10,130 nucleotides of DNA, from UHGV virus genome UHGV-0074229, one strand, 5' to 3'. The notes beneath the pieces were generated by a model. The model saw nothing but the letters and a program-made list of their open reading frames with translations, ran no database searches and was not told the origin of the DNA. The first letter of the stretch is position 1; the number at the start of each line of letters is the position of its first letter. The position numbers were made by a program, and so were the translations under genes. Positions 446-7,309 of the stretch are shown in pieces. This DNA comes from a virus.

Positions 446-553
446 AAGTGCGAGTTTTTGTGGCTGGATTTTATATTGTGTGTTGTTTTTATATGTTTGA
501 AAATATATATGCGTGGCTAATGATTTTGGTATTGGTTGAGTAATAAACAAGAG

Positions 554-582
554 TTGTTAATAATATAATTTTTTGATAATAT
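554..582 (+). promoter_or_regulatory. Candidate sigma70 promoter (TTGTTA - 17 nt - TAATAT) downstream of Q; possible late promoter (PR'-like) or promoter of the small ORF
   Basis: -35-like hexamer at 554-559 and -10-like hexamer at 577-582 with 17-nt spacing. The AT-rich context makes chance matches likely. Confidence 0.25.
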
Positions 583-676
583 AAAATCACTCATCAATAA
601 TCATGATGAGAATTTTTTTAACATGACATTTATAAGTGATTTGTCTTTTATTTCTATATTTTACTAAGGAGTGTGC

Positions 677-856
677 ATGAATAAGAAACAAAGAATTAAT
701 TATTTTTATGATAAAACTACTTCTTGGAATTATTTAAATACCATTTTTCTTACCCAATATTTTATGGCATGTAGTATGAAAGCTAATTTGAAAATGACAA
801 AACCTAAAAAGACTAATGGGGTTTTAAATTCGAATTCCGGTAGTCAAGTTTTTTGA
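677..856 (+). CDS. Hypothetical small basic protein (59 aa)
   Basis: ATG at 677 is preceded by a strong Shine-Dalgarno AAGGAG (666-671) at 5-nt spacing. AT-rich, no recognisable domain, ends ~55 nt upstream of the hairpin at 912-938. Confidence 0.35.
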   Translation: MNKKQRINYFYDKTTSWNYLNTIFLTQYFMACSMKANLKMTKPKKTNGVLNSNSGSQVF

Positions 857-911
857 TAGGTAAATTCCTGCTCGTTTTAATTATTTGAGATATATTGCAG
901 CAGAGGTAGAG

Positions 912-938
912 AACCACCCTGTTACGGGTGGTTTTTAA
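912..938 (+). terminator. Intrinsic terminator hairpin (AACCACCC-tgttac-GGGTGGTT followed by TTTTTAATT), between convergent genes
   Basis: Perfect 8-bp GC-rich stem (912-919 / 926-933), 6-nt loop, then a T-run on the + strand. On the minus strand the hairpin follows the big gene's stop (960) but has no U-tract, so it is mainly a + strand terminator. Confidence 0.6.
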
Positions 939-959
939 TTATATCAAAAAAGTGGCATT

Positions 960-3900
960 TTAATGTCCTATGCGGTTTAACGTATTAAAGGCATCACTAA
1001 TCTTGGGTGTGAGAATTAATTTTCTTTTAATGCCAATGTTTTTTGCTAACTCTTTCAATGCTTCTTCTTCAGTTCTTTTTAAATCATAGTTACTTGTTAT
1101 AATTTGATTAATCTTGAAGAAAAGAGATTCTTGAACAACTTTGTTTTGTATCTTTGCTAAATCGTTAGCTAATTGTATAACCATTTCATCTTTAATATCC
1201 ATTAAGGTGAAAGTTAAAATAGCCTTTTCTACAGGATTGCTATTTGAGTCTTTTGATTCAGTAATAATGTTTGCAATACGTGGTTTTTTCGAGCTTAAGT
1301 CATTGCTCATAATAAACTGTATGTTATTTGGGATCATTGAGCGAACTAAAGACAATACTAGTTTAAACATTTCAAAAACTCGTTGTCTTTCGTTATCGGT
1401 TAATTTATCCTCTTGCATTTTCTTTTCTAATGCAGGGAGTATTACTGGAAGAACAAATGAATCATCCATTAGTACTAGTGACGCTTTCATGTAAAAAACA
1501 TAACCCTTTACAAGGTCATTAAATATATTTAATATATTTTCTCTTTCCATAGATAATTCAGTACTACGGAATACCCTTGCATAAAGAGATAAAGTGTTAA
1601 TAAGATCATGTAACAGATTATTATTACCTTCCGCTCTAACATTTGATATATTAGCTTTTTTATCTTTATCAGATAAAGGTGATAATTCATCTAGTCGCGC
1701 GTCATCTTTTTCTCTATCTGCACGGAGTGATTCTATCTTTTTTTCGAAATCATCTTGGGTTGATACCATATCTAAAATAGAGAAAGTATTAGAGTCTTCA
1801 ATCTTTATATCTTCAATATTTATTCCCTTATCTTCGAGCATTCGTTCAGATAAAGAAGATTTGATTGCATTAGTCTTCTTTTTAAGTAAGTATAATAAAT
1901 CAAGACTAGATGAGTTCTGCGATGAATAGTATTCAATAACTTTATGTAGATGTAGATAATTATTATCGGATAAAATTTCTTTCTTTAGCTCTTCGTTATG
2001 CTTCATGAAATAAGCGATGGAATAGTATAAAAAGCAAGGCTGCGAGAAAATCACATTACATAGCTCTTCTTTCAATATTCCACATTCTTTTAATGGTTTT
2101 ATATAGTCTTCTACTTGATAATCATGCATGGTATCTCTATTGAAAATTATTGCAGTCTGCAGAAGATCATTATTTGAAATAAAATTACATTTGTTTTTGA
2201 ATAATGTAAATCCTAAATATCCAAGAAAATGCCGAAGTTCTTTAAATTGTGGCTTATTAGGCGGAGTATCCATAAAATGTTTACGAAGCAAAATTTCTAT
2301 GAAGTTTTCTATAATATCAGACTCACTTAATATTCCTTTAACGTCATGATCAACTTCATAAATAGCTAAAAGCATTGAGTATGTAAAATAATTATGAGGA
2401 AGTTGCGAATTGTTGATTGTTCGCGTGATTTCTTTGTATATTATATTTTGTGATGTTGTGTCGTGCCATCTTGATACAATATCGCGAACATTAGATCTGC
2501 GTAATGAACCTATAGCAATTGCATGAAATTTAGCTTTGCTTTCATCTGATAATATTTTAACTACCAGATCTGAATTATTATAGCCAGCAGTTACGATAAA
2601 TCTACATTCTTTGAATTTTATAAAAAAATCAGAAATTACACATTGTTCTTTTGTATTTATATTGTCCAGATTATCAATATATATAACACATCTTCCCTCA
2701 TGTAACATTTTTTTAATTTTTTCTTCAAAAGATGTGGTCGAATCTGCATTGAAATATTGTGTACATAATGCGCTTACAATTGTATTTAAGCTATTTAATT
2801 CAATTGCATTTAAATCTAAGAAAAATGCAAAGTTACTGAAGTCTTTGCAGGCCTGTTTTTCTAGACTCTTAATGAATAGGTATTTTAAAAGAGATGTTTT
2901 ACCTGAGCTATGGTTTCCTACAATCACAAGGTTGTTTCGTCCTTCTAGTAATTCTTGTGTGGACTTAATCTCCATAGAAGGCATGGCTCCAAGAGCAAAT
3001 TCAAGGAAATTTGGTTCAGTAAATAGAGTTCTTAGACTTTTTTTCTTTTCATCAGAGATTCCAATGTTAATTAATAAATCCTTATCAGTTTTCTCTAGAA
3101 TCTCATTAGATAATGTTGCAAATTTTTCAGAGTCAAAAGTTAGAGTTTTCTCAGTGGTGAAATCAAAAACACCACCATTTCCTCTTTCTTCCCATGGTTC
3201 ATAGTATGTTTTTTCTTTATTATATTTTCTATAAAAAATTCTTCCGTCTGATATGACATTTGAACTATTAAAATTTATTAATGAATAGCCTGATACATTT
3301 TCACTAGTATCCAAAGTTCCTGCTTGCAAAAAGAGGGTGATGTTTTCACAAAAACTAGATTCTAGTTTTTGTTTAAAATCATGCATATGACCAAAAAAGA
3401 ACATTGAAACTTTTTTTTCAATAAATGTTGAAAAAATGTCACGATCATTCTTATTCAACCAATCTAAAGGATGATGGCATAATAATATTATTTTTGCATC
3501 AGAAGGTATTTTGGCACGATTGATAAAATCAATTTGCTTTTGGGTAATTCGTAAGTTACCAATATCATTATCATCCATAGCTAACCATGCGCTATTTACG
3601 CTAACGACGTATAATTTGTTTGTTACTTTAAAGCATGTAATCATGCGTCCAGATTGTTCAACATCAGAATGATGATCTAATATTGTTTTATTATATTCAC
3701 AGTACTCGTAGAGACGTTCCCATGAATACTCTCCATTATTTATCATATCAAAGTATGATGATATGAAATTTTCGTCCGAACCAGTTCGCAGTTGTTTTTC
3801 AAGTGGATGAACTTTACTTCTGTCCACATCATGATTGCCTGGGGTTATAAAAATGTTTTTTTTACTGATGTTCAGCTTTTGAATAAGTGGAGAGAGGAAA

Positions 3901-4112
3901 TGTTCATCAAATAGTTGAAATTGCTCTTTGGTTCCAGAAAACGTTAAATCCCCAGTAAAAAAAATGGCATCTATCTGGAGGTTGTTTTCTTTACTTAATG
4001 AATGTATATCATTAACTAATACTGTGACCAGTTCTTTGGCTTTCTTCCAGTGAAAACCATATTTTTTTGAGTCTGATAAGTGTAAGTCGGATAAGTGTAC
4101 AATTGATTTCAT
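960..4112 (-). CDS. Large multidomain protein (~1050 aa): N-terminal calcineurin-like metallophosphoesterase + central P-loop NTPase (STAND/AAA+-like) + C-terminal helical domain; candidate single-gene anti-phage defence protein
   Basis: Uninterrupted 3.18 kb ORF. Metallophosphoesterase motifs all present: D-x-H (VHLSDLH), GD (FFTGDLTF), GNHD (PGNHDV, + coords 3828-3839), H (LLCHHPL), GH-x-H (FFFGHMHD). Walker A GNHSSGKTS (+ coords 2892-2918), Walker B CVIYIDNLD (D at 2673-2675), sensor-1-like FIVTAG ~25 aa later. The track start at 4142 is a TTG; the ATG at 4112-4110 (MKSIVHLSDLH) with upstream AAAGGGAA is the likely start. Strongly AT-rich versus flanking phage genes. Confidence 0.85.
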   Translation of the reverse strand: MKSIVHLSDLHLSDSKKYGFHWKKAKELVTVLVNDIHSLSKENNLQIDAIFFTGDLTFSGTKEQFQLFDEHFLSPLIQKLNISKKNIFITPGNHDVDRSKVHPLEKQLRTGSDENFISSYFDMINNGEYSWERLYEYCEYNKTILDHHSDVEQSGRMITCFKVTNKLYVVSVNSAWLAMDDNDIGNLRITQKQIDFINRAKIPSDAKIILLCHHPLDWLNKNDRDIFSTFIEKKVSMFFFGHMHDFKQKLESSFCENITLFLQAGTLDTSENVSGYSLINFNSSNVISDGRIFYRKYNKEKTYYEPWEERGNGGVFDFTTEKTLTFDSEKFATLSNEILEKTDKDLLINIGISDEKKKSLRTLFTEPNFLEFALGAMPSMEIKSTQELLEGRNNLVIVGNHSSGKTSLLKYLFIKSLEKQACKDFSNFAFFLDLNAIELNSLNTIVSALCTQYFNADSTTSFEEKIKKMLHEGRCVIYIDNLDNINTKEQCVISDFFIKFKECRFIVTAGYNNSDLVVKILSDESKAKFHAIAIGSLRRSNVRDIVSRWHDTTSQNIIYKEITRTINNSQLPHNYFTYSMLLAIYEVDHDVKGILSESDIIENFIEILLRKHFMDTPPNKPQFKELRHFLGYLGFTLFKNKCNFISNNDLLQTAIIFNRDTMHDYQVEDYIKPLKECGILKEELCNVIFSQPCFLYYSIAYFMKHNEELKKEILSDNNYLHLHKVIEYYSSQNSSSLDLLYLLKKKTNAIKSSLSERMLEDKGINIEDIKIEDSNTFSILDMVSTQDDFEKKIESLRADREKDDARLDELSPLSDKDKKANISNVRAEGNNNLLHDLINTLSLYARVFRSTELSMERENILNIFNDLVKGYVFYMKASLVLMDDSFVLPVILPALEKKMQEDKLTDNERQRVFEMFKLVLSLVRSMIPNNIQFIMSNDLSSKKPRIANIITESKDSNSNPVEKAILTFTLMDIKDEMVIQLANDLAKIQNKVVQESLFFKINQIITSNYDLKRTEEEALKELAKNIGIKRKLILTPKISDAFNTLNRIGH

Positions 4113-4181
4113 GCTATTCCCTTTAAACAACAGGATTATCAAAAAATATTGCTTTTACATTTGGTGTGAGAAAGGTAAGTA

Positions 4182-4210
4182 ATTATAAAAAAATCTTAAC
4201 GCGTACGCAA
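4182..4210 (-). promoter_or_regulatory. Candidate sigma70 promoter for the large minus-strand gene (minus-strand TTGCGT - 17 nt - TATAAT)
   Basis: Consensus -10 TATAAT (+ coords 4182-4187 read as ATTATA) about 70 nt upstream of the ATG at 4112, with a weak -35 (+ coords 4205-4210). Confidence 0.3.
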
Positions 4211-4255
4211 AAAGTATTGTATCGTGTTAAGAGTGGTTACTTCGCCACACAGCTT

Positions 4256-4282
4256 AAACCCGCGTCGAGCGGGTTTTGTCGT
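4256..4282 (+). terminator. Intrinsic terminator hairpin (AAACCCGC-gtcga-GCGGGTTT followed by TGTCGTTTCT) upstream of the holin; possible late-leader (tR'-like) terminator
   Basis: 8-bp stem (4256-4263 / 4269-4276), 5-nt loop, U-rich tail on the + strand, ~150 nt upstream of the holin start. Confidence 0.5.
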
Positions 4283-4428
4283 TTCTGGGGCTGGGGATTC
4301 GTTGGTTCTGGCCTATTCCGCAGTTATCCATTGGTTCGGCTTCTTTGACGTTTCCGCTTCTGATTTGCGGTACATGATGTTCCCTCAATTTGCACCTGCT
4401 GTATCAGCGAGGTGAGAGATAACTACAA

Positions 4429-4755
4429 ATGCCTCATAACCCAAATACCTGGTTGGAGTTGGTCCAGAGCTGGTGGCGTGGAGACACACCGCTGGGCGCA
4501 GTGATTATGTCGATCGTTATGGCTGGTTTGCGCATTGCCTATTTTGGCGGTGGTGGTGGCTGGAAGCGAAAAACACTCGAAATTCTACTCTGTGGCGCTC
4601 TGACGCTGACTTTTGCATCCGCTCTTGAGTATGTCGGATGGCCTAAATCGCTTTCTGTTGCCATTGGTGGTGGCGTTGGGTTGATCGGTGTCGATGCTAT
4701 TCGTGGGGCTGCAATGAGAGTAATCGGTAATAAGTTTGGTGGCTCTAAGGAGTAA
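4429..4755 (+). CDS. Holin (class I-like, three predicted transmembrane segments)
   Basis: 107-aa protein immediately upstream of the endolysin. Three hydrophobic segments (GAVIMSIVMAGLRIAYF, LEILLCGALTLTFASALEYVGW, LSVAIGGGVGLIGVDAI) and a charged C-terminus. SD GAGGTGAGAG upstream of the ATG. Confidence 0.7.
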   Translation: MPHNPNTWLELVQSWWRGDTPLGAVIMSIVMAGLRIAYFGGGGGWKRKTLEILLCGALTLTFASALEYVGWPKSLSVAIGGGVGLIGVDAIRGAAMRVIGNKFGGSKE

Positions 4756-4758
4756 TTT

Positions 4759-5235
4759 ATGCAGGTACTAAATTCCCAGCGTAAAGCTTTCCTCGATATG
4801 GTGGCATGGTCAGAAGGAACGGATAACGGACGGCAGAAAACCAGAAATCATGGTTATGACGTCATTGTAGGCGGAGAGCTATTTACTGATTACTCCGATC
4901 ACCCTCGCAAACTTGTCACGCTAAACCCCAAACTCAAATCAACAGCAGCCGGGCGCTACCAGCTTCTTTCCCGTTGGTGGGATTCCTATCGTAAGCAGCT
5001 TGGCCTGAAAGACTTCTCTCCGAAAAGCCAGGACGCTGTGGCACTGCAACAGATTAAAGAGCGTGGCGCTTTACCGATGATTGATCGCGGTGATATTCGT
5101 CAGGCTATCGACCGTTGCAGCAATATCTGGGCTTCACTGCCGGGCGCTGGTTACGGTCAGTATGAACATAGAATCGGTGACCTGATTGCCCGATTTAAAG
5201 AGGCTGGTGGGGTGGTAAATGAAGTTGAGTTATAA
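4759..5235 (+). CDS. R: Endolysin, lambda R-type lytic transglycosylase
   Basis: 158-aa translation is near-identical over most of its length to lambda R as I recall it (NSQRKAFLDMVAWSEGTDNGRQKTRNHGYDVIVGGELFTDYSDHPRKLVTLNPKLKST...), including the catalytic Glu in WSEGT. RBS AAGGAG 7 nt upstream. Confidence 0.92.
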   Translation: MQVLNSQRKAFLDMVAWSEGTDNGRQKTRNHGYDVIVGGELFTDYSDHPRKLVTLNPKLKSTAAGRYQLLSRWWDSYRKQLGLKDFSPKSQDAVALQQIKERGALPMIDRGDIRQAIDRCSNIWASLPGAGYGQYEHRIGDLIARFKEAGGVVNEVEL

Positions 5236-5611
5236 GTTGGCTATCTCTGCTTTCTTCTTTACTGTCATTGGCTCTTTCATCTGGTCAGCGAATTACTACT
5301 ACAGCAAATATCAGCATGAAAAGAAACGTGCTGATGAGGCTGTACAAAATGCTGAATCGGCAACTGCCATTACCAATAACGTCCTGCAATCAATACAAAT
5401 CGTAAATACAGTTCTGGAGGCTAACCAGCATGCAAAACAGCAGATCGCACTGGAGTCACAGAGAACCCAGGAAGATATCAAAGTGGCTGTTGAGAATGAT
5501 GATTGCGCTTCCCGTCTTGTTCCTGCTCGTGCAACTGAGCGGCTGCGCCGGTACGCGGACAATTTACGTGCCAGTTCCGGCGGTACCACTACCGGCGAAC
5601 CTGACCGCTGA
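5219..5611 (+). CDS. Rz: Rz-like inner-membrane spanin (i-spanin)
   Basis: Start overlaps the end of R. N-terminal TM segment (LAISAFFFTVIGSFIW) followed by a charged, Gln/Ala-rich helical region. Position after the endolysin and an embedded lipoprotein ORF in another frame are typical of Rz. Confidence 0.65.
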   Translation: MKLSYKLAISAFFFTVIGSFIWSANYYYSKYQHEKKRADEAVQNAESATAITNNVLQSIQIVNTVLEANQHAKQQIALESQRTQEDIKVAVENDDCASRLVPARATERLRRYADNLRASSGGTTTGEPDR

Positions 5612-5753
5612 AACCCCACAGCCAGCTATTCCTGATCCGCTGACTTACAAAGATAGTCTGGATTTAAACGTGAGCCTGCTGTCAGTGCTGGCTGCCTGTA
5701 ATAGGGATAAGGCTGATATTCGTAAAATTGAAGCAGAGAAGAGTGAGCCATGA
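5496..5753 (+). CDS. Rz1: Rz1-like outer-membrane lipoprotein spanin (o-spanin), overlapping Rz in a different frame
   Basis: Signal peptide with lipobox (MMIALPVLFLLVQLSGC) and a proline-rich mature region (YVPVPAVPLPANLTAETPQPAIPDP). It starts inside Rz but runs ~140 nt beyond the Rz stop. Confidence 0.65.
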   Translation: MMIALPVLFLLVQLSGCAGTRTIYVPVPAVPLPANLTAETPQPAIPDPLTYKDSLDLNVSLLSVLAACNRDKADIRKIEAEKSEP

Positions 5754-5947
5754 AGCAGTAAAGTGGAAAGACCGCAGCAAGAAGTGCCTGTTCAGCATTA
5801 ATGAAGATGTCCAAAATACCTAAAATAGCGAGTAGCCACATGCACGTCAACTACGAGCGTGTGGCCAGCATAACGTTGTATAAACTAAGTGATAGCAGAG
5901 CTCAATATACGTATACTGAGAGAACTATTTCTATTTGAGAACTGAAA

Positions 5948-6541
5948 ATGACGGACTATACTTTTTTTTACTGGATAGAGATGCTTCTTAAAGAAGGCAA
6001 TGTTTTATTTATTGTTCTTGCTTGTTTGATTGTCTTTTTTACTTTAAAAAAAGAAATAATAATGGTTTTAGGTCGTCTTAATACAGTTAAGCTAGGTGAC
6101 TATGAGATTAAATTTAAAAAAGAAATGTTTGAAATAGAATCTAAAAGTATAGAGGTTATTAAAAATTTACCTGGAACAAATCCTGTCCTGCCGACACAAC
6201 TCATTGAGAATTTCAATATTTTTGAGAGTCTTGCTAGTACTCAGCCTAATGTTGCTGTACTTTCAGCTTGGCGCGAATTGGAGTTAACCGCTATAACGCT
6301 TGCATCTAAAAAGGGGATTGAGATCAACGGGACATCTTTAGGGCGGGCTTCAGGTATCGCTGCCTTGAAAAATGTCCAATCTGCAAACAAAATTTCTAGT
6401 GACATTGTTAAGCTCTATGAAAAAACAGGAGAGTCTATTAAGCCTATATCCCAAGGAAAGCTCTTATGTACTCAGGAAGATGCTTTGGCATTCTGTAAGA
6501 ATGCAAAAAGACTTAGCAATTATTTAACATCCATATTTTAG
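5948..6541 (+). CDS. Hypothetical membrane-anchored protein (197 aa), AT-rich cargo gene
   Basis: Long ORF with N-terminal hydrophobic segment (VLFIVLACLIVFFTL) and a ~150-aa soluble domain. AT-rich codon usage unlike the flanking phage genes. No recognised motif. Confidence 0.5.
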   Translation: MTDYTFFYWIEMLLKEGNVLFIVLACLIVFFTLKKEIIMVLGRLNTVKLGDYEIKFKKEMFEIESKSIEVIKNLPGTNPVLPTQLIENFNIFESLASTQPNVAVLSAWRELELTAITLASKKGIEINGTSLGRASGIAALKNVQSANKISSDIVKLYEKTGESIKPISQGKLLCTQEDALAFCKNAKRLSNYLTSIF

Positions 6542-6583
6542 TATGTATCCATAGAGCATCCATTATTATTGGAGTAGTCGTTA

Positions 6584-6610
6584 CAGCAGGCATTCACTGA
6601 GTGCCTGCTG
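6584..6610. other. Inverted repeat / hairpin (CAGCAGGCA-ttcactgag-TGCCTGCTG) between convergent ORFs; possible factor-independent terminator lacking a U-tract
   Basis: Perfect 9-bp stem between the stop of the 197-aa ORF (6541) and the stop of the minus-strand 70-aa ORF (6618). Confidence 0.3.
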
Positions 6611-6617
6611 CTGAACT

Positions 6618-6830
6618 CTAATAGCAAGATGGAGAATCTGCATTAAATTTTTGAGAGAGATTACTTATTTCATTCACTCCCTTATGATTAAGTAATCGCC
6701 TAATATTTTCTGGAGCCTTGAATATAAATGGGCCTTTTAGATCCTCGATGATTCCTCCTGCGACGCAGATCAAATGCTTGAAATCAACATCTTCAATTGT
6801 GGGCTTGGAGTCCAGATTATCGCTTGTCAT
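6618..6830 (-). CDS. Hypothetical small protein (70 aa)
   Basis: Minus-strand ORF with a good RBS (AAAGGA ~9 nt upstream of ATG at 6830). AT-rich, no recognised motif. Confidence 0.35.
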   Translation of the reverse strand: MTSDNLDSKPTIEDVDFKHLICVAGGIIEDLKGPFIFKAPENIRRLLNHKGVNEISNLSQKFNADSPSCY

Positions 6831-6958
6831 TTAAAAACATCCTTTCTTGCCATTAGCAGCATTGAGCATGTTATGGAATCTGTAATTTAGGATGCTGGTA
6901 CTACCAGTATTTTTTTGTTTCATTTTGTGTATCACCTCATTTACGAGGGGAGCCTATC

Positions 6959-7309
6959 ATGCCACCACGAACACCAAAAGCCTGCCGTGTTCGCGGCTGC
7001 CGCTCTATAACCACAGACCCGTCAGGCTACTGCGAAAGCCACAAAAGCGAAGGCTGGAAGCAGTACAAACCTAGACAATCCCGTCACCAGCGCGGCTACG
7101 GTTCGAAGTGGGATGTTATCCGCGCGTGCGTGCTGAAGCGTGATAAAGGACTGTGTCAGTTATGTCTGCGTGCTGGTGTGGTGCGTGAGGCGAAAACCGT
7201 TGACCACATCATCCCTAAAGCGCATGGCGGCACTGATGCCGACTGTAATCTGCAGAGTCTGTGCTGGCCTTGTCATAAGGCGAAGACGGCCCGTGAACGG
7301 CTGAAGTGA
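6959..7309 (+). CDS. HNH endonuclease (terminase-associated, HK97 gp74-like)
   Basis: HNH motif DHIIPKAHGG...NLQSLCWPCH with Cys-rich zinc-binding pairs (CRVRGC, CQLC, CWPCH). Strong RBS GAGGGGAG. Position immediately upstream of TerS/TerL is the known HK97-type arrangement. Confidence 0.9.
   Translation: MPPRTPKACRVRGCRSITTDPSGYCESHKSEGWKQYKPRQSRHQRGYGSKWDVIRACVLKRDKGLCQLCLRAGVVREAKTVDHIIPKAHGGTDADCNLQSLCWPCHKAKTARERLK

What the first reader, a model, noticed from the sequence alone, without database searches (positions are those of the whole stretch)
960..4112. Metallophosphoesterase + P-loop NTPase + helical C-terminal domain fusion: candidate undescribed single-gene anti-phage defence protein
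One ~1050-aa protein carries a complete calcineurin-like phosphoesterase motif set (D-x-H, GD, GNHD, H, GH-x-H), so the N-terminal domain is probably catalytically competent. The N-terminus (MKSIVHLSDLH) resembles SbcD/Mre11 nucleases. It is followed by a P-loop NTPase with Walker A, Walker B ~75 aa later and a sensor-1-like motif, the spacing of STAND/AAA+ NTPases, then ~500 aa of helical sequence with a highly charged low-complexity stretch (DDFEKKIESLRADREKDDARLDELSPLSDKDKK). This effector-NTPase-sensor layout is that of Avs/bNACHT-type antiviral proteins, but I do not recall a metallophosphoesterase effector in a named system of this architecture. The gene is AT-rich cargo inside a prophage, a typical home for defence genes.
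Basis: partly seen in the sequence, partly recalled or inferred. Interest (0 to 1): 0.9.

Follow-up and report, generated by a model that had tools for sequence, protein, structure and literature searches.

The report
Prophage-borne metallophosphatase–NACHT anti-phage protein (DS-8-like)
This E. coli prophage gene encodes a real 1050-residue protein that joins a phosphatase-type enzyme to an NLR-like ATPase switch, but this design was already predicted (PADLOC PDC-S60) and a distant relative (DS-8) has been shown to protect against phage, so it is a divergent new member of a known kind.

Summary
Window 960-4112 (- strand) is one intact 1050-aa gene (RefSeq WP_033866696.1) at about 30% G+C, sitting between the Q antiterminator and the holin of an E. 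coli prophage. All metallophosphatase metal ligands and the Walker A/B motifs are present and conserved across 111 homologues. The AlphaFold model (pLDDT 87.9) matches NLRP3, NOD2 and NLRC4 NACHT modules.

The "undescribed" claim fails. The protein matches PADLOC candidate PDC-S60 over its full length (E 1e-97). It also matches NCBIfam DS8_antiphage over its full length (E 2e-50), but at 171 bits against a 790-bit cut-off. DS-8 (DefensePredictor, bioRxiv 2025 / Science 2026) is a validated single-protein metallophosphatase+NACHT system. The residues mutated there (D52, N84, K375) correspond to D55, N93 and K405 here. Identity to DS-8 is only about 23%, so this is a separate enterobacterial clade.

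Most likely mechanism (inferred): the helical C-terminal domain senses a phage cue, the NACHT module oligomerises, nucleotide or NAD+ pools are depleted, and infection aborts.

Verdict: new member of a known kind; modest interest.

The parts
960..4112 (-). Complete CDS, 1050 aa plus stop (WP_033866696.1): metallophosphatase-NACHT-helical C-terminal protein, PDC-S60 / DS-8-like
3138..4112 (-). Residues 1-325: metallophosphatase (calcineurin-like) effector domain with metal ligands D9, H11, D55, N93, H213/H214, H242, H244
2433..2972 (-). Residues 381-560: NACHT-type P-loop nucleotide-binding domain (Walker A G399-T406, Walker B D480)
1968..2432 (-). Residues 561-715: helical and winged-helix part of the STAND module. 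It includes a sub-threshold nSTAND_NTPase4 match at 644-697 and is the most conserved segment within the close clade.
963..1967 (-). Residues 716-1050: all-helical C-terminal domain, the presumed sensor, with a charged flexible linker around 787-830
4118..4123 (-). Shine-Dalgarno-like AAGGGA, 5 nt upstream of the ATG at 4112
   Evidence: read from the sequence
4182..4210 (-). Candidate own promoter: TTGCGT (4210-4205), 17-nt spacer, TATAAT (4187-4182). The -35 element lies in the conserved phage backbone and the -10 element at the edge of the cargo.
   Evidence: Read from the sequence. Cargo boundary. Not picked up by the consensus scan because the -35 matches only 3 of 6. Unverified.
912..933 (.). 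Hairpin AACCACCC-TGTTAC-GGGTGGTT between the converging small ORF and the main gene; a T-run follows on the + strand
   Evidence: Read from the sequence. Function inferred.
448..4187 (.). The AT-rich variable cargo segment that replaces other cargo in related prophages between Q (101-445) and the holin (4429-4755)
   Evidence: blastn boundaries against L002 and L003; composition

Best explanation
The gene encodes a single-protein, NLR-like anti-phage system. It belongs to the same superfamily as PADLOC PDC-S60 and the validated system DS-8, and it is carried as a moron in the Q-holin slot of an E. coli prophage.

Proposed mechanism:
1. The all-helical C-terminal domain (716-1050) detects a phage-derived cue. 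This is inferred and the cue is unknown.
2. The NACHT NTPase (381-715, Walker A K405, Walker B D480) binds ATP and drives oligomerisation. This is inferred from NLR/Avs biology and from the loss of defence in DS-8 K375A.
3. Oligomerisation activates the N-terminal metallophosphatase domain (1-325). This domain is a 'Calcineurin-CE'-type nucleotide-targeting effector. Its most likely reaction is hydrolysis of phosphoanhydride bonds in nucleotides. Because there is no HAD partner here, NAD+ to NMN + AMP is the most likely activity, possibly with (d)NDP/(d)NTP hydrolysis as well. This is inferred from homology to DS-9A/MisA/PUA-Cal.
4. The metabolite collapse aborts the infection.

What is shown: domain composition, catalytic-residue conservation, fold, full-length homology, and mobile-element context. 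What is inferred: phage protection by this particular protein, the trigger, and the substrate.
For: Family assignment. The protein matches PDC-S60 over its full length (326 bits, E 1.4e-97). It matches the DS8_antiphage HMM over its full length and in the same order (residues 6-992 against model 1-962 of 994, E 2.3e-50). BLASTP against the first 399 aa of DS-8 gives 23% identity, E 9e-15, running in order through motifs I-V and Walker A. The DS-8 N-terminal fragment also hits both PDC-S60 models.

DS-8 precedent. DS-8 was validated, and its D52A, N84A and K375A mutants were made and lost defence. These residues correspond to D55, N93 and K405 here, which are invariant or conserved in the family.

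Effector chemistry. NCBIfam DS9_1 scores 72.5 bits (E 3e-20), against 19 bits for CpdA and 16 bits for SbcD. hhalign of the N-domain family profile against DS-9A gives probability 98.4%, E 4.9e-15. MisA and PUA-Cal metallophosphatases cleave NAD+ to NMN + AMP in vitro, and PUA-Cal also converts dNDP to dNMP.

Context. The gene lies in an AT-rich cargo segment, 448-4187. The same slot in sister prophages holds a DS-1-like YejK pair or another cassette. Homologues in Rahnella, Citrobacter and Enterobacter sit in the Q-holin slot of different prophages. Cronobacter, Proteus and Pantoea copies are in other prophage or integrase-linked sites. No partner gene is conserved. The gene is patchily distributed: 18 of 5426 complete E. 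coli genomes.
Against: No experiment exists on this protein or on its clade. The DS-8 model score (171 bits) is far below the equivalog cut-off (790 bits), and identity to DS-8 is about 23%. Trigger, phage range and even substrate may therefore differ.

The substrate of DS-8 itself is unknown, and its authors suggested a cyclic nucleotide.

The two studies of the DS-9-type effector disagree on the physiological substrate: NAD+ in one, dNTP pools via a HAD cascade in the other.

The comparison with DS-9A covers only about 185 columns of a truncated sequence.

Distant family members are lone genes among housekeeping genes rather than in defence islands.

The host prophage is decaying, and several E. 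coli alleles are frameshifted or truncated. Selection for function in E. coli is therefore not guaranteed.
Confidence: 0.65

Rival explanations
1. Same NLR-like switch, but the metallophosphatase is a cyclic-(di)nucleotide phosphodiesterase. It would degrade a signalling molecule (as human SMPDL3A degrades cGAMP, or class III cNMP phosphodiesterases degrade cAMP) rather than deplete NAD+ or nucleotides.
Against: No cyclase or other signal-producing partner is encoded beside the gene in any context examined. Removing a messenger is an unusual output for an N-terminal effector of a stand-alone NLR-like protein. The nearest characterised defence homologue (MisA/PUA-Cal) cleaves phosphoanhydride bonds. 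The E. coli CpdA model scores only 19 bits, against 72.5 for DS9_1.
Confidence: 0.15
2. The metallophosphatase is an Mre11/SbcD-like nuclease that degrades phage or host DNA once the NACHT module is activated. This is the first reader's suggestion, and it parallels the nuclease effectors of Avs2-4.
Confidence: 0.1
3. The gene has no anti-phage function in this host. It would be an inert or decaying passenger of a defective prophage, or it would serve another prophage or host purpose.
For: The prophage in strain 300033 carries many pseudogenes and lacks portal and capsid genes. Seven of 16 full-length E. coli copies show a 1-bp length change consistent with a frameshift, and two are truncated. 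Distant relatives are not in recognisable defence islands. The DS-8 equivalog threshold is not met.
Against: A 3.15-kb ORF in 30% G+C DNA is intact, with every catalytic residue preserved. The exact protein occurs on 29 contigs. Orthologues at 42-64% identity are kept full-length in at least eight other genera, seven of the eight loci examined lying in prophages or beside an integrase. A homologue with the same architecture is experimentally defensive.
Confidence: 0.1

Closest known systems
DS-8 (WP_032203427.1; DefensePredictor, DeWeirdt, Mahoney & Laub, bioRxiv 2025 / Science 2026; NCBIfam NF053861 DS8_antiphage)
   Same: A single protein of about 1000-1050 aa with an N-terminal metallophosphatase, a central NACHT module and a helical C-terminal region. 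The HMM match is full-length and in the same order. The residues whose mutation abolished DS-8 defence are conserved here. The closest solved structures for the enzyme domain are the same family (SMPDL3B, 5KAR).
   Different: Identity is only about 23% over the first 400 aa, and the score is 171 bits against a 790-bit equivalog cut-off. This protein belongs to a separate enterobacterial clade (members 34-64% identical to it). It is untested, and its trigger and phage range are unknown.
PADLOC phage defence candidate PDC-S60 (models PDLC05051 and PDLC05050, PADLOC-DB v2.0.0)
   Same: Full-length match to PDLC05051 (residues 4-1029; 326 bits). Same single-gene architecture. The DS-8 N-terminal fragment also falls under these models.
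   Different: Core PDC-S60 members (for example Bacteroidota P0066 and P0068) score about 1195 bits and share only 20-23% identity with this protein. PDC-S60 is a computational candidate with no literature of its own in the searched library.
Calcineurin-CE effector of DS-9 / Metis MisA / PUA-Cal-HAD
   Same: The metallophosphatase domains are homologous (NCBIfam DS9_1 E 3e-20; hhalign probability 98.4%). Both act as the effector module of an anti-phage system.
   Different: Those systems use an N-terminal PUA-like sensor of m6dAMP plus a HAD phosphatase partner, and they form hexamers and filaments. Here the regulator is a NACHT NTPase with a helical C-terminal domain, and there is no HAD gene.
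Avs/AVAST and bNACHT bacterial NLR-like proteins
   Same: The same logic: an N-terminal effector, a central STAND/NACHT NTPase and a C-terminal sensor in one polypeptide, often carried on mobile elements.
   Different: None of the four PADLOC families reported at E <= 1 is an Avs or bNACHT model. The effector is a metallophosphatase rather than a nuclease, SIR2, TIR or protease. The C-terminal domain has no detectable TPR or other known sensor signature.
Animal NLRs (NLRP3, NOD2, NLRC4/NAIP)
   Different: No LRR sensor, no death-fold adaptor, and an enzymatic effector fused directly to the switch.

Membership tests
DS-8 (NCBIfam NF053861, equivalog) | Full-length match to the DS8_antiphage HMM in the same order | tested here: met
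   Residues 6-992 against model positions 1-962 of 994, E 2.3e-50
DS-8 (NCBIfam NF053861, equivalog) | Score at or above the curated equivalog cut-off (790 bits) | tested here: not met
   171.3 bits. By comparison, P0135, a 635-aa protein 81% identical to DS-8 over DS-8's first 399 aa, scores 575 bits.
DS-8 (NCBIfam NF053861, equivalog) | Catalytic metallophosphatase residues (DS-8 D52, N84) and NACHT Walker A lysine (K375), all required for defence | tested here: met
   They align with D55, N93 and K405, which are conserved in 111 homologues.
DS-8 (NCBIfam NF053861, equivalog) | Protection against phage when expressed in E. coli | not testable with these tools
   Needs plaque assays
PADLOC PDC-S60 | Match to the family HMM over the whole protein; single-gene system | tested here: met
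   PDLC05051, residues 4-1029 against positions 3-1001 of 1027, 326 bits, E 1.4e-97. No conserved neighbour gene. PADLOC's own system thresholds were not run.
Calcineurin-CE nucleotide-targeting effector (DS-9A / MisA / PUA-Cal type) | Sequence homology of the metallophosphatase domain to DS-9A | tested here: met
   NCBIfam DS9_1, 72.5 bits, E 3e-20, over residues 2-216 (below that model's 420-bit whole-protein cut-off, as expected for a single domain). hhalign probability 98.4%, E 4.9e-15. The original Calcineurin-CE profile (Nicastro et al. 2023) was not available.
Calcineurin-CE nucleotide-targeting effector (DS-9A / MisA / PUA-Cal type) | Hydrolysis of NAD+ to NMN + AMP and/or of (d)NDP to (d)NMP | not testable with these tools
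   The activity is known only for MisA and PUA-Cal
Metis / PUA-Cal-HAD system | PUA-like m6dAMP sensor fused to the metallophosphatase, plus an adjacent HAD phosphatase gene | tested here: not met
   No PUA or HAD match in the protein or in the cargo segment
NACHT clade of STAND NTPases | Pfam NACHT above the gathering score; Walker A/B present; NBD-helical-winged-helix fold like NLRs | tested here: met
Avs (AVAST) types 1-5 / named bNACHT systems | Match to the family HMMs used by PADLOC | tested here: not met
   Only PDC-S60, a CBASS 'Endonuclease' effector model, PDC-S10 and mad8 appear at E <= 1
Avs (AVAST) types 1-5 / named bNACHT systems | C-terminal repeat sensor (TPR-like) that binds a conserved phage protein | tested here: inconclusive
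Mre11/SbcD nucleases | Nuclease plus capping domain architecture, a Rad50/SbcC partner, and closest fold relationship | tested here: not met

The most novel reading that the evidence does not exclude
This enterobacterial clade is about 23% identical to DS-8. It could be a functionally distinct NLR-like system in two respects. First, its family-specific helical C-terminal domain could recognise a new phage cue. Second, its expression could be wired into prophage biology. In every example seen, the cargo in the Q-holin slot lies antisense to the Q-dependent late transcript. Induction of the resident prophage could therefore silence the defence gene by transcriptional interference, sparing the prophage's own lytic growth while the lysogen stays protected against other phages. 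The effector could also turn out to be the first NACHT-controlled NAD+ diphosphatase, producing NMN + AMP rather than ADP-ribose + nicotinamide.
Probability: 0.2. Interest if true: 0.5.

Novelty: new member of a known kind. Interest (0 to 1): 0.3.

Why it matters
If functional, this protein adds a divergent, prophage-borne branch to the metallophosphatase-NACHT (DS-8 / PDC-S60) family, whose substrate and trigger are still unknown. The branch is easy to test because it is native to E. coli.

It links two recent lines of work. One is NLR-like switches. The other is the Calcineurin-CE effectors, shown in 2025-26 to cleave NAD+ or deplete dNTPs. That link yields a concrete prediction: NAD+ to NMN + AMP without a HAD partner.

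The finding also documents the Q-holin slot of P27-terminase-type and other lambdoid prophages as an exchangeable site. That site carries DS-8-like, DS-1-like and uncharacterised cassettes, which could be mined further.

None of this is a new principle.

Tried and rejected
1. Full-length DS-8 sequence. The paper's supplement stores only about 400 aa. A database search with that fragment returned only fragments and partial relatives. The full-length relation therefore rests on the NCBIfam HMM.
2. Literature on PDC-S60: none in the library. Only the general meaning of 'PDC' could be confirmed.
3. Nicastro et al. 2023 (NAR), which defines Calcineurin-CE, is not held. Membership of that family could only be tested indirectly, through DS-9A.
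4. tblastn against 50,697 sequenced phage genomes: no match. The gene is known only from prophages and chromosomes.
5. PDB by sequence with the whole protein: nothing useful.
7. The small upstream ORF (677-856) as an obligatory partner: rejected. Rahnella has a 39%-identical copy in the same position, but Citrobacter and Enterobacter have an unrelated small ORF there, and other contexts have none.
8. PADLOC on the alternative cargo genes of the slot: no hits. NCBIfam gave sub-threshold DS-1-like matches for one pair.
9. Rfam and tRNA scans of the window: nothing.
10. The consensus promoter scan found fewer sites than shuffled controls and missed the candidate promoter. That promoter is read by eye and is unverified.
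11. The Foldseek top hit, YydB (B. subtilis YydD-YydB model 9a6c_B), was not pursued. A literature search was uninformative.
12. Faster divergence of the C-terminal domain (an arms-race signature): only a weak trend. Not claimed.
Full report
**1. What is there.**

The window is an E. coli prophage segment. It is 100% identical to strain 300033, NZ_CM128588.1 1541701-1551829. Gene order on the + strand is: Q-family antiterminator (101-445), holin (4429-4755), GH24 endolysin (4759-5235), Rz/Rz1-like genes, HNH endonuclease, P27-family small terminase, and large terminase.

Between Q and the holin lies a 3.7-kb block at 28-33% G+C. The backbone is at 49-57%. This block carries one long - strand ORF, 960..4142.

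The probable start is the ATG at 4112. An AAGGGA lies five bases upstream, and RefSeq uses this start (WP_033866696.1, 1050 aa, 'metallophosphoesterase'). The exact protein occurs on 29 public contigs.

An uninterrupted 3.15-kb reading frame in DNA this AT-rich is not a chance event, and the profile matches below settle the point.

**2. Domains.**

*Sequence profiles.* Pfam finds Metallophos (residues 3-245, E 1.2e-11) and NACHT (395-551; 27.7 bits against a gathering score of 26.7). It also gives a sub-threshold nSTAND_NTPase4 match at 644-697.

*Family conservation.* I collected 447 relatives and aligned 110 full-length ones with the query.
- The seven metal-binding positions of the calcineurin-like fold are invariant or nearly so: D9, H11, D55, N93, H213/H214, H242 and H244.
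- An extra invariant N173 is also present.
- Walker A G404-K405-T/S406 is conserved (K in 93 sequences, R in 17). Walker B D480 is present in 110 of 111.

*Structure.* An AlphaFold2 model built on this alignment is confident (mean pLDDT 87.9, pTM 0.68).

**3. It is not undescribed.**

- PADLOC-DB v2 contains a full-length model of exactly this architecture, candidate PDC-S60. It matches at 326 bits, E 1.4e-97, residues 4-1029.
- NCBIfam contains 'DS8_antiphage' (NF053861). It aligns from residue 6 to 992 at E 2.3e-50, but at 171 bits, far below its 790-bit equivalog cut-off.
- DS-8 comes from DefensePredictor (PMC13092281). It is an E. coli single-protein system, WP_032203427.1, 1014 aa, with a metallophosphatase and a NACHT domain. 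It was validated by plaque assays, and the D52A, N84A and K375A mutants lost defence.
- The first 399 aa of DS-8 (all that the stored supplement gives) align with this protein in the same order at 23% identity (E 9e-15). D52, N84 and K375 fall on D55, N93 and K405.
- That DS-8 fragment and its 81% relative P0135 also hit the two PDC-S60 models. Homologues of this protein in Rahnella, Pectobacterium, Lysinibacillus and Bacteroidota all hit both PDC-S60 and the DS-8 model.
- Earlier comparative-genomic papers had already listed calcineurin-like phosphoesterases among effectors fused to STAND/NACHT modules (PMC8195603; bioRxiv 10.1101/2022.07.19.500537).

The superfamily is large and uniform. Among 1.84 billion 50%-identity representatives, 190 score E <= 1e-30 and 2324 score E <= 1e-10. 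Most of the best 150 are 1020-1140 aa and aligned over most of their length; about a fifth are shorter fragments.

Within the superfamily this protein belongs to an enterobacterial clade (P0002-P0030, 34-64% identity). That clade is about equally distant (20-25%) from DS-8 and from the Bacteroidota-rich PDC-S60 core.

**4. What the enzyme domain probably does.**

*Sequence.* The family profile of residues 1-325 finds Lmo2642, Mre11/SbcD, Rv0805 and GpdQ. Most of these matches cover only motifs I-III, so sequence does not discriminate between activities.

*Structure.* Structure does discriminate.
- Lower-scoring group: SbcD 15.6 and Mre11 12-14.3, mostly with large rmsd.

The domain therefore belongs with small-molecule phosphodiesterases and pyrophosphatases rather than the DNA-end nucleases. 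This agrees with the DS-8 authors' top HHpred hit, 5KAR.

*Defence homologues.* Among NCBIfam models, the best match after DS-8 is DS9_1 (72.5 bits, E 3e-20). E. coli CpdA scores 19 bits and SbcD 16. hhalign of the N-domain family profile against DS-9A gives 98.4% probability, E 4.9e-15, over 185 columns.

*Biochemistry of that effector type.* Two 2025-26 preprints studied the two-gene module of DS-9's composition, a PUA-like domain fused to a calcineurin-like phosphoesterase plus a HAD phosphatase.
- In Metis, the MisA metallophosphatase cleaves NAD+ into NMN + AMP after sensing m6dAMP. The authors predict that this cleavage is common in defence (10.1101/2025.11.05.686725).
- In PUA-Cal-HAD, the 'Calcineurin-CE' domain cleaves NAD+ in vitro without HAD. 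Together with HAD it converts dNTP to dNDP to dNMP, and those authors regard dNTP depletion as the physiological output (10.64898/2026.01.15.699771).

*Inference.* No HAD gene accompanies this protein. The most economical inference is that the NACHT switch controls a phosphoanhydride hydrolase acting on NAD+ and/or nucleotides. This is inference from homology only; no substrate has been shown for DS-8 or for this clade.

**5. Context.**

*Cargo boundaries.* blastn against sister prophages places the edges of the cargo at 448 and 4187.

*What else occupies the slot.* In other E. coli prophages with the same backbone, the slot carries one of the following:
- a pair that resembles DS-1 at sub-threshold level, made of a YejK-like nucleoid-associated protein and a partner (L003);
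- an uncharacterised three-gene cassette that includes a STAS-like protein (L002).

All of these lie antisense to the late operon.

*Where the homologues sit.*
- Rahnella (64% identity), Citrobacter (58%) and Enterobacter (57%): between Q and the holin of different prophages.
- Cronobacter: between replication gene P and the RusA/Q region.
- Proteus: between tail-fibre genes and the integrase.
- Pantoea: beside an integrase.
- Pectobacterium: next to a PIN/PhD toxin-antitoxin pair.
- Distant members: lone genes among housekeeping genes, twice near transposases.

No partner gene is conserved.

*Distribution in E. coli.* The gene occurs in 18 of 5426 complete genomes, always chromosomal and at least 99.7% identical. 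Seven copies show a 1-bp length change and two are truncated. It is absent from 50,697 sequenced phage genomes. This is the pattern of a mobile accessory immunity gene.

**6. Expression signals (read by eye, unverified).**

- A TTGCGT-17 nt-TATAAT promoter candidate lies at 4210-4182 on the - strand. Its -35 element is in the conserved backbone and its -10 element is at the cargo edge.
- A hairpin at 912-933 lies between the gene's 3' end and a converging 59-aa ORF (677-856) that has a strong AAGGAG ribosome-binding site.
- A + strand terminator-like hairpin at 4256-4276 lies in the conserved spacer before the holin.

**7. Verdict.**

The protein is best filed as a divergent, untested member of the PDC-S60 / DS-8 superfamily of metallophosphatase-NACHT anti-phage proteins. 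It is not a DS-8 equivalog, because the score cut-off is not met.

The best mechanistic hypothesis is that the C-terminal domain senses a phage cue, the NACHT module oligomerises, a Calcineurin-CE-type domain depletes NAD+ or nucleotides, and infection aborts.

My confidence is:
- about 0.9 for the family assignment;
- about 0.75 for a defence function;
- about 0.45 for the specific chemistry.

Interest is modest. The gene is a good test case for the unknown substrate and trigger of this family, and a marker of an exchangeable prophage slot, but it is not a new kind of system.

Noticed in passing
window 448-4187; L002 1948-3887; L003 1921-4223: The Q-holin interval is an exchangeable cargo slot. 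Sister E. coli prophages carry instead a YejK-like pair with sub-threshold matches to DS-1 (NCBIfam DS1_1/DS1_2) or an uncharacterised three-gene cassette with a STAS-like protein. Every cargo seen, including the metallophosphatase-NACHT gene in five genera, is antisense to the late operon.
   Followed up: partly
window 677-856 (+): A 59-aa ORF with a strong AAGGAG ribosome-binding site converges on the main gene. Rahnella has an uncalled 39%-identical copy in the same relative position (L005 13509-13372, shared motif LTxYFxACSMK). Citrobacter and Enterobacter have a different small ORF there (M[K/N]RIxRDYFG). It has no family match and is not a universal partner.
   Followed up: partly
window 5303-6960 (ORF 5948-6541 +): A second variable, AT-rich slot lies between the Rz-like genes and the HNH endonuclease. 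Here it holds a 197-aa protein (phrog_30030, unknown function). JNEC-KY203 has a DUF6236 protein there and a Citrobacter prophage has a DUF4145 protein.
   Followed up: partly
window 4188-4428: The spacer between the cargo and the holin is conserved. It contains a + strand terminator-like hairpin (4256-4276, AAACCCGCG..CGCGGGTTT followed by a T-rich tail) and the -35 element of the candidate - strand promoter. The phage backbone may therefore supply promoter elements for whichever cargo is inserted.
   Followed up: no
L001 (NZ_CM128588.1 1522701-1570829): The host prophage, integrated next to tRNA-Arg with intS, is decaying. The large terminase and a small 53-aa ORF are followed by a tail-sheath pseudogene, with no portal or capsid genes, and several tail and baseplate genes carry internal stops or frameshifts.
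   Followed up: no
E. coli genomes H22-H28, H32-H33: Seven copies of the gene differ in length by 1 bp and are annotated as split or 'family protein'; six of them come from one pig-isolate lineage. Strain CB209 keeps only about the first 409 codons. This suggests recurrent inactivation.
   Followed up: no
protein residue 405 (window 2898-2900): In 17 of 111 family members the Walker A lysine is replaced by arginine, which is unusual for an active P-loop NTPase.
   Followed up: no
model m3367f6409f51, residues ~1-400: The best Foldseek PDB hit is chain B of 9a6c, an integrative model of the Bacillus subtilis YydD-YydB complex (E 2e-13, target-normalised TM-score (TMt) 0.53). This hints that YydB, a metallophosphatase paired with another protein, may be a split relative of this effector type.
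   Followed up: no
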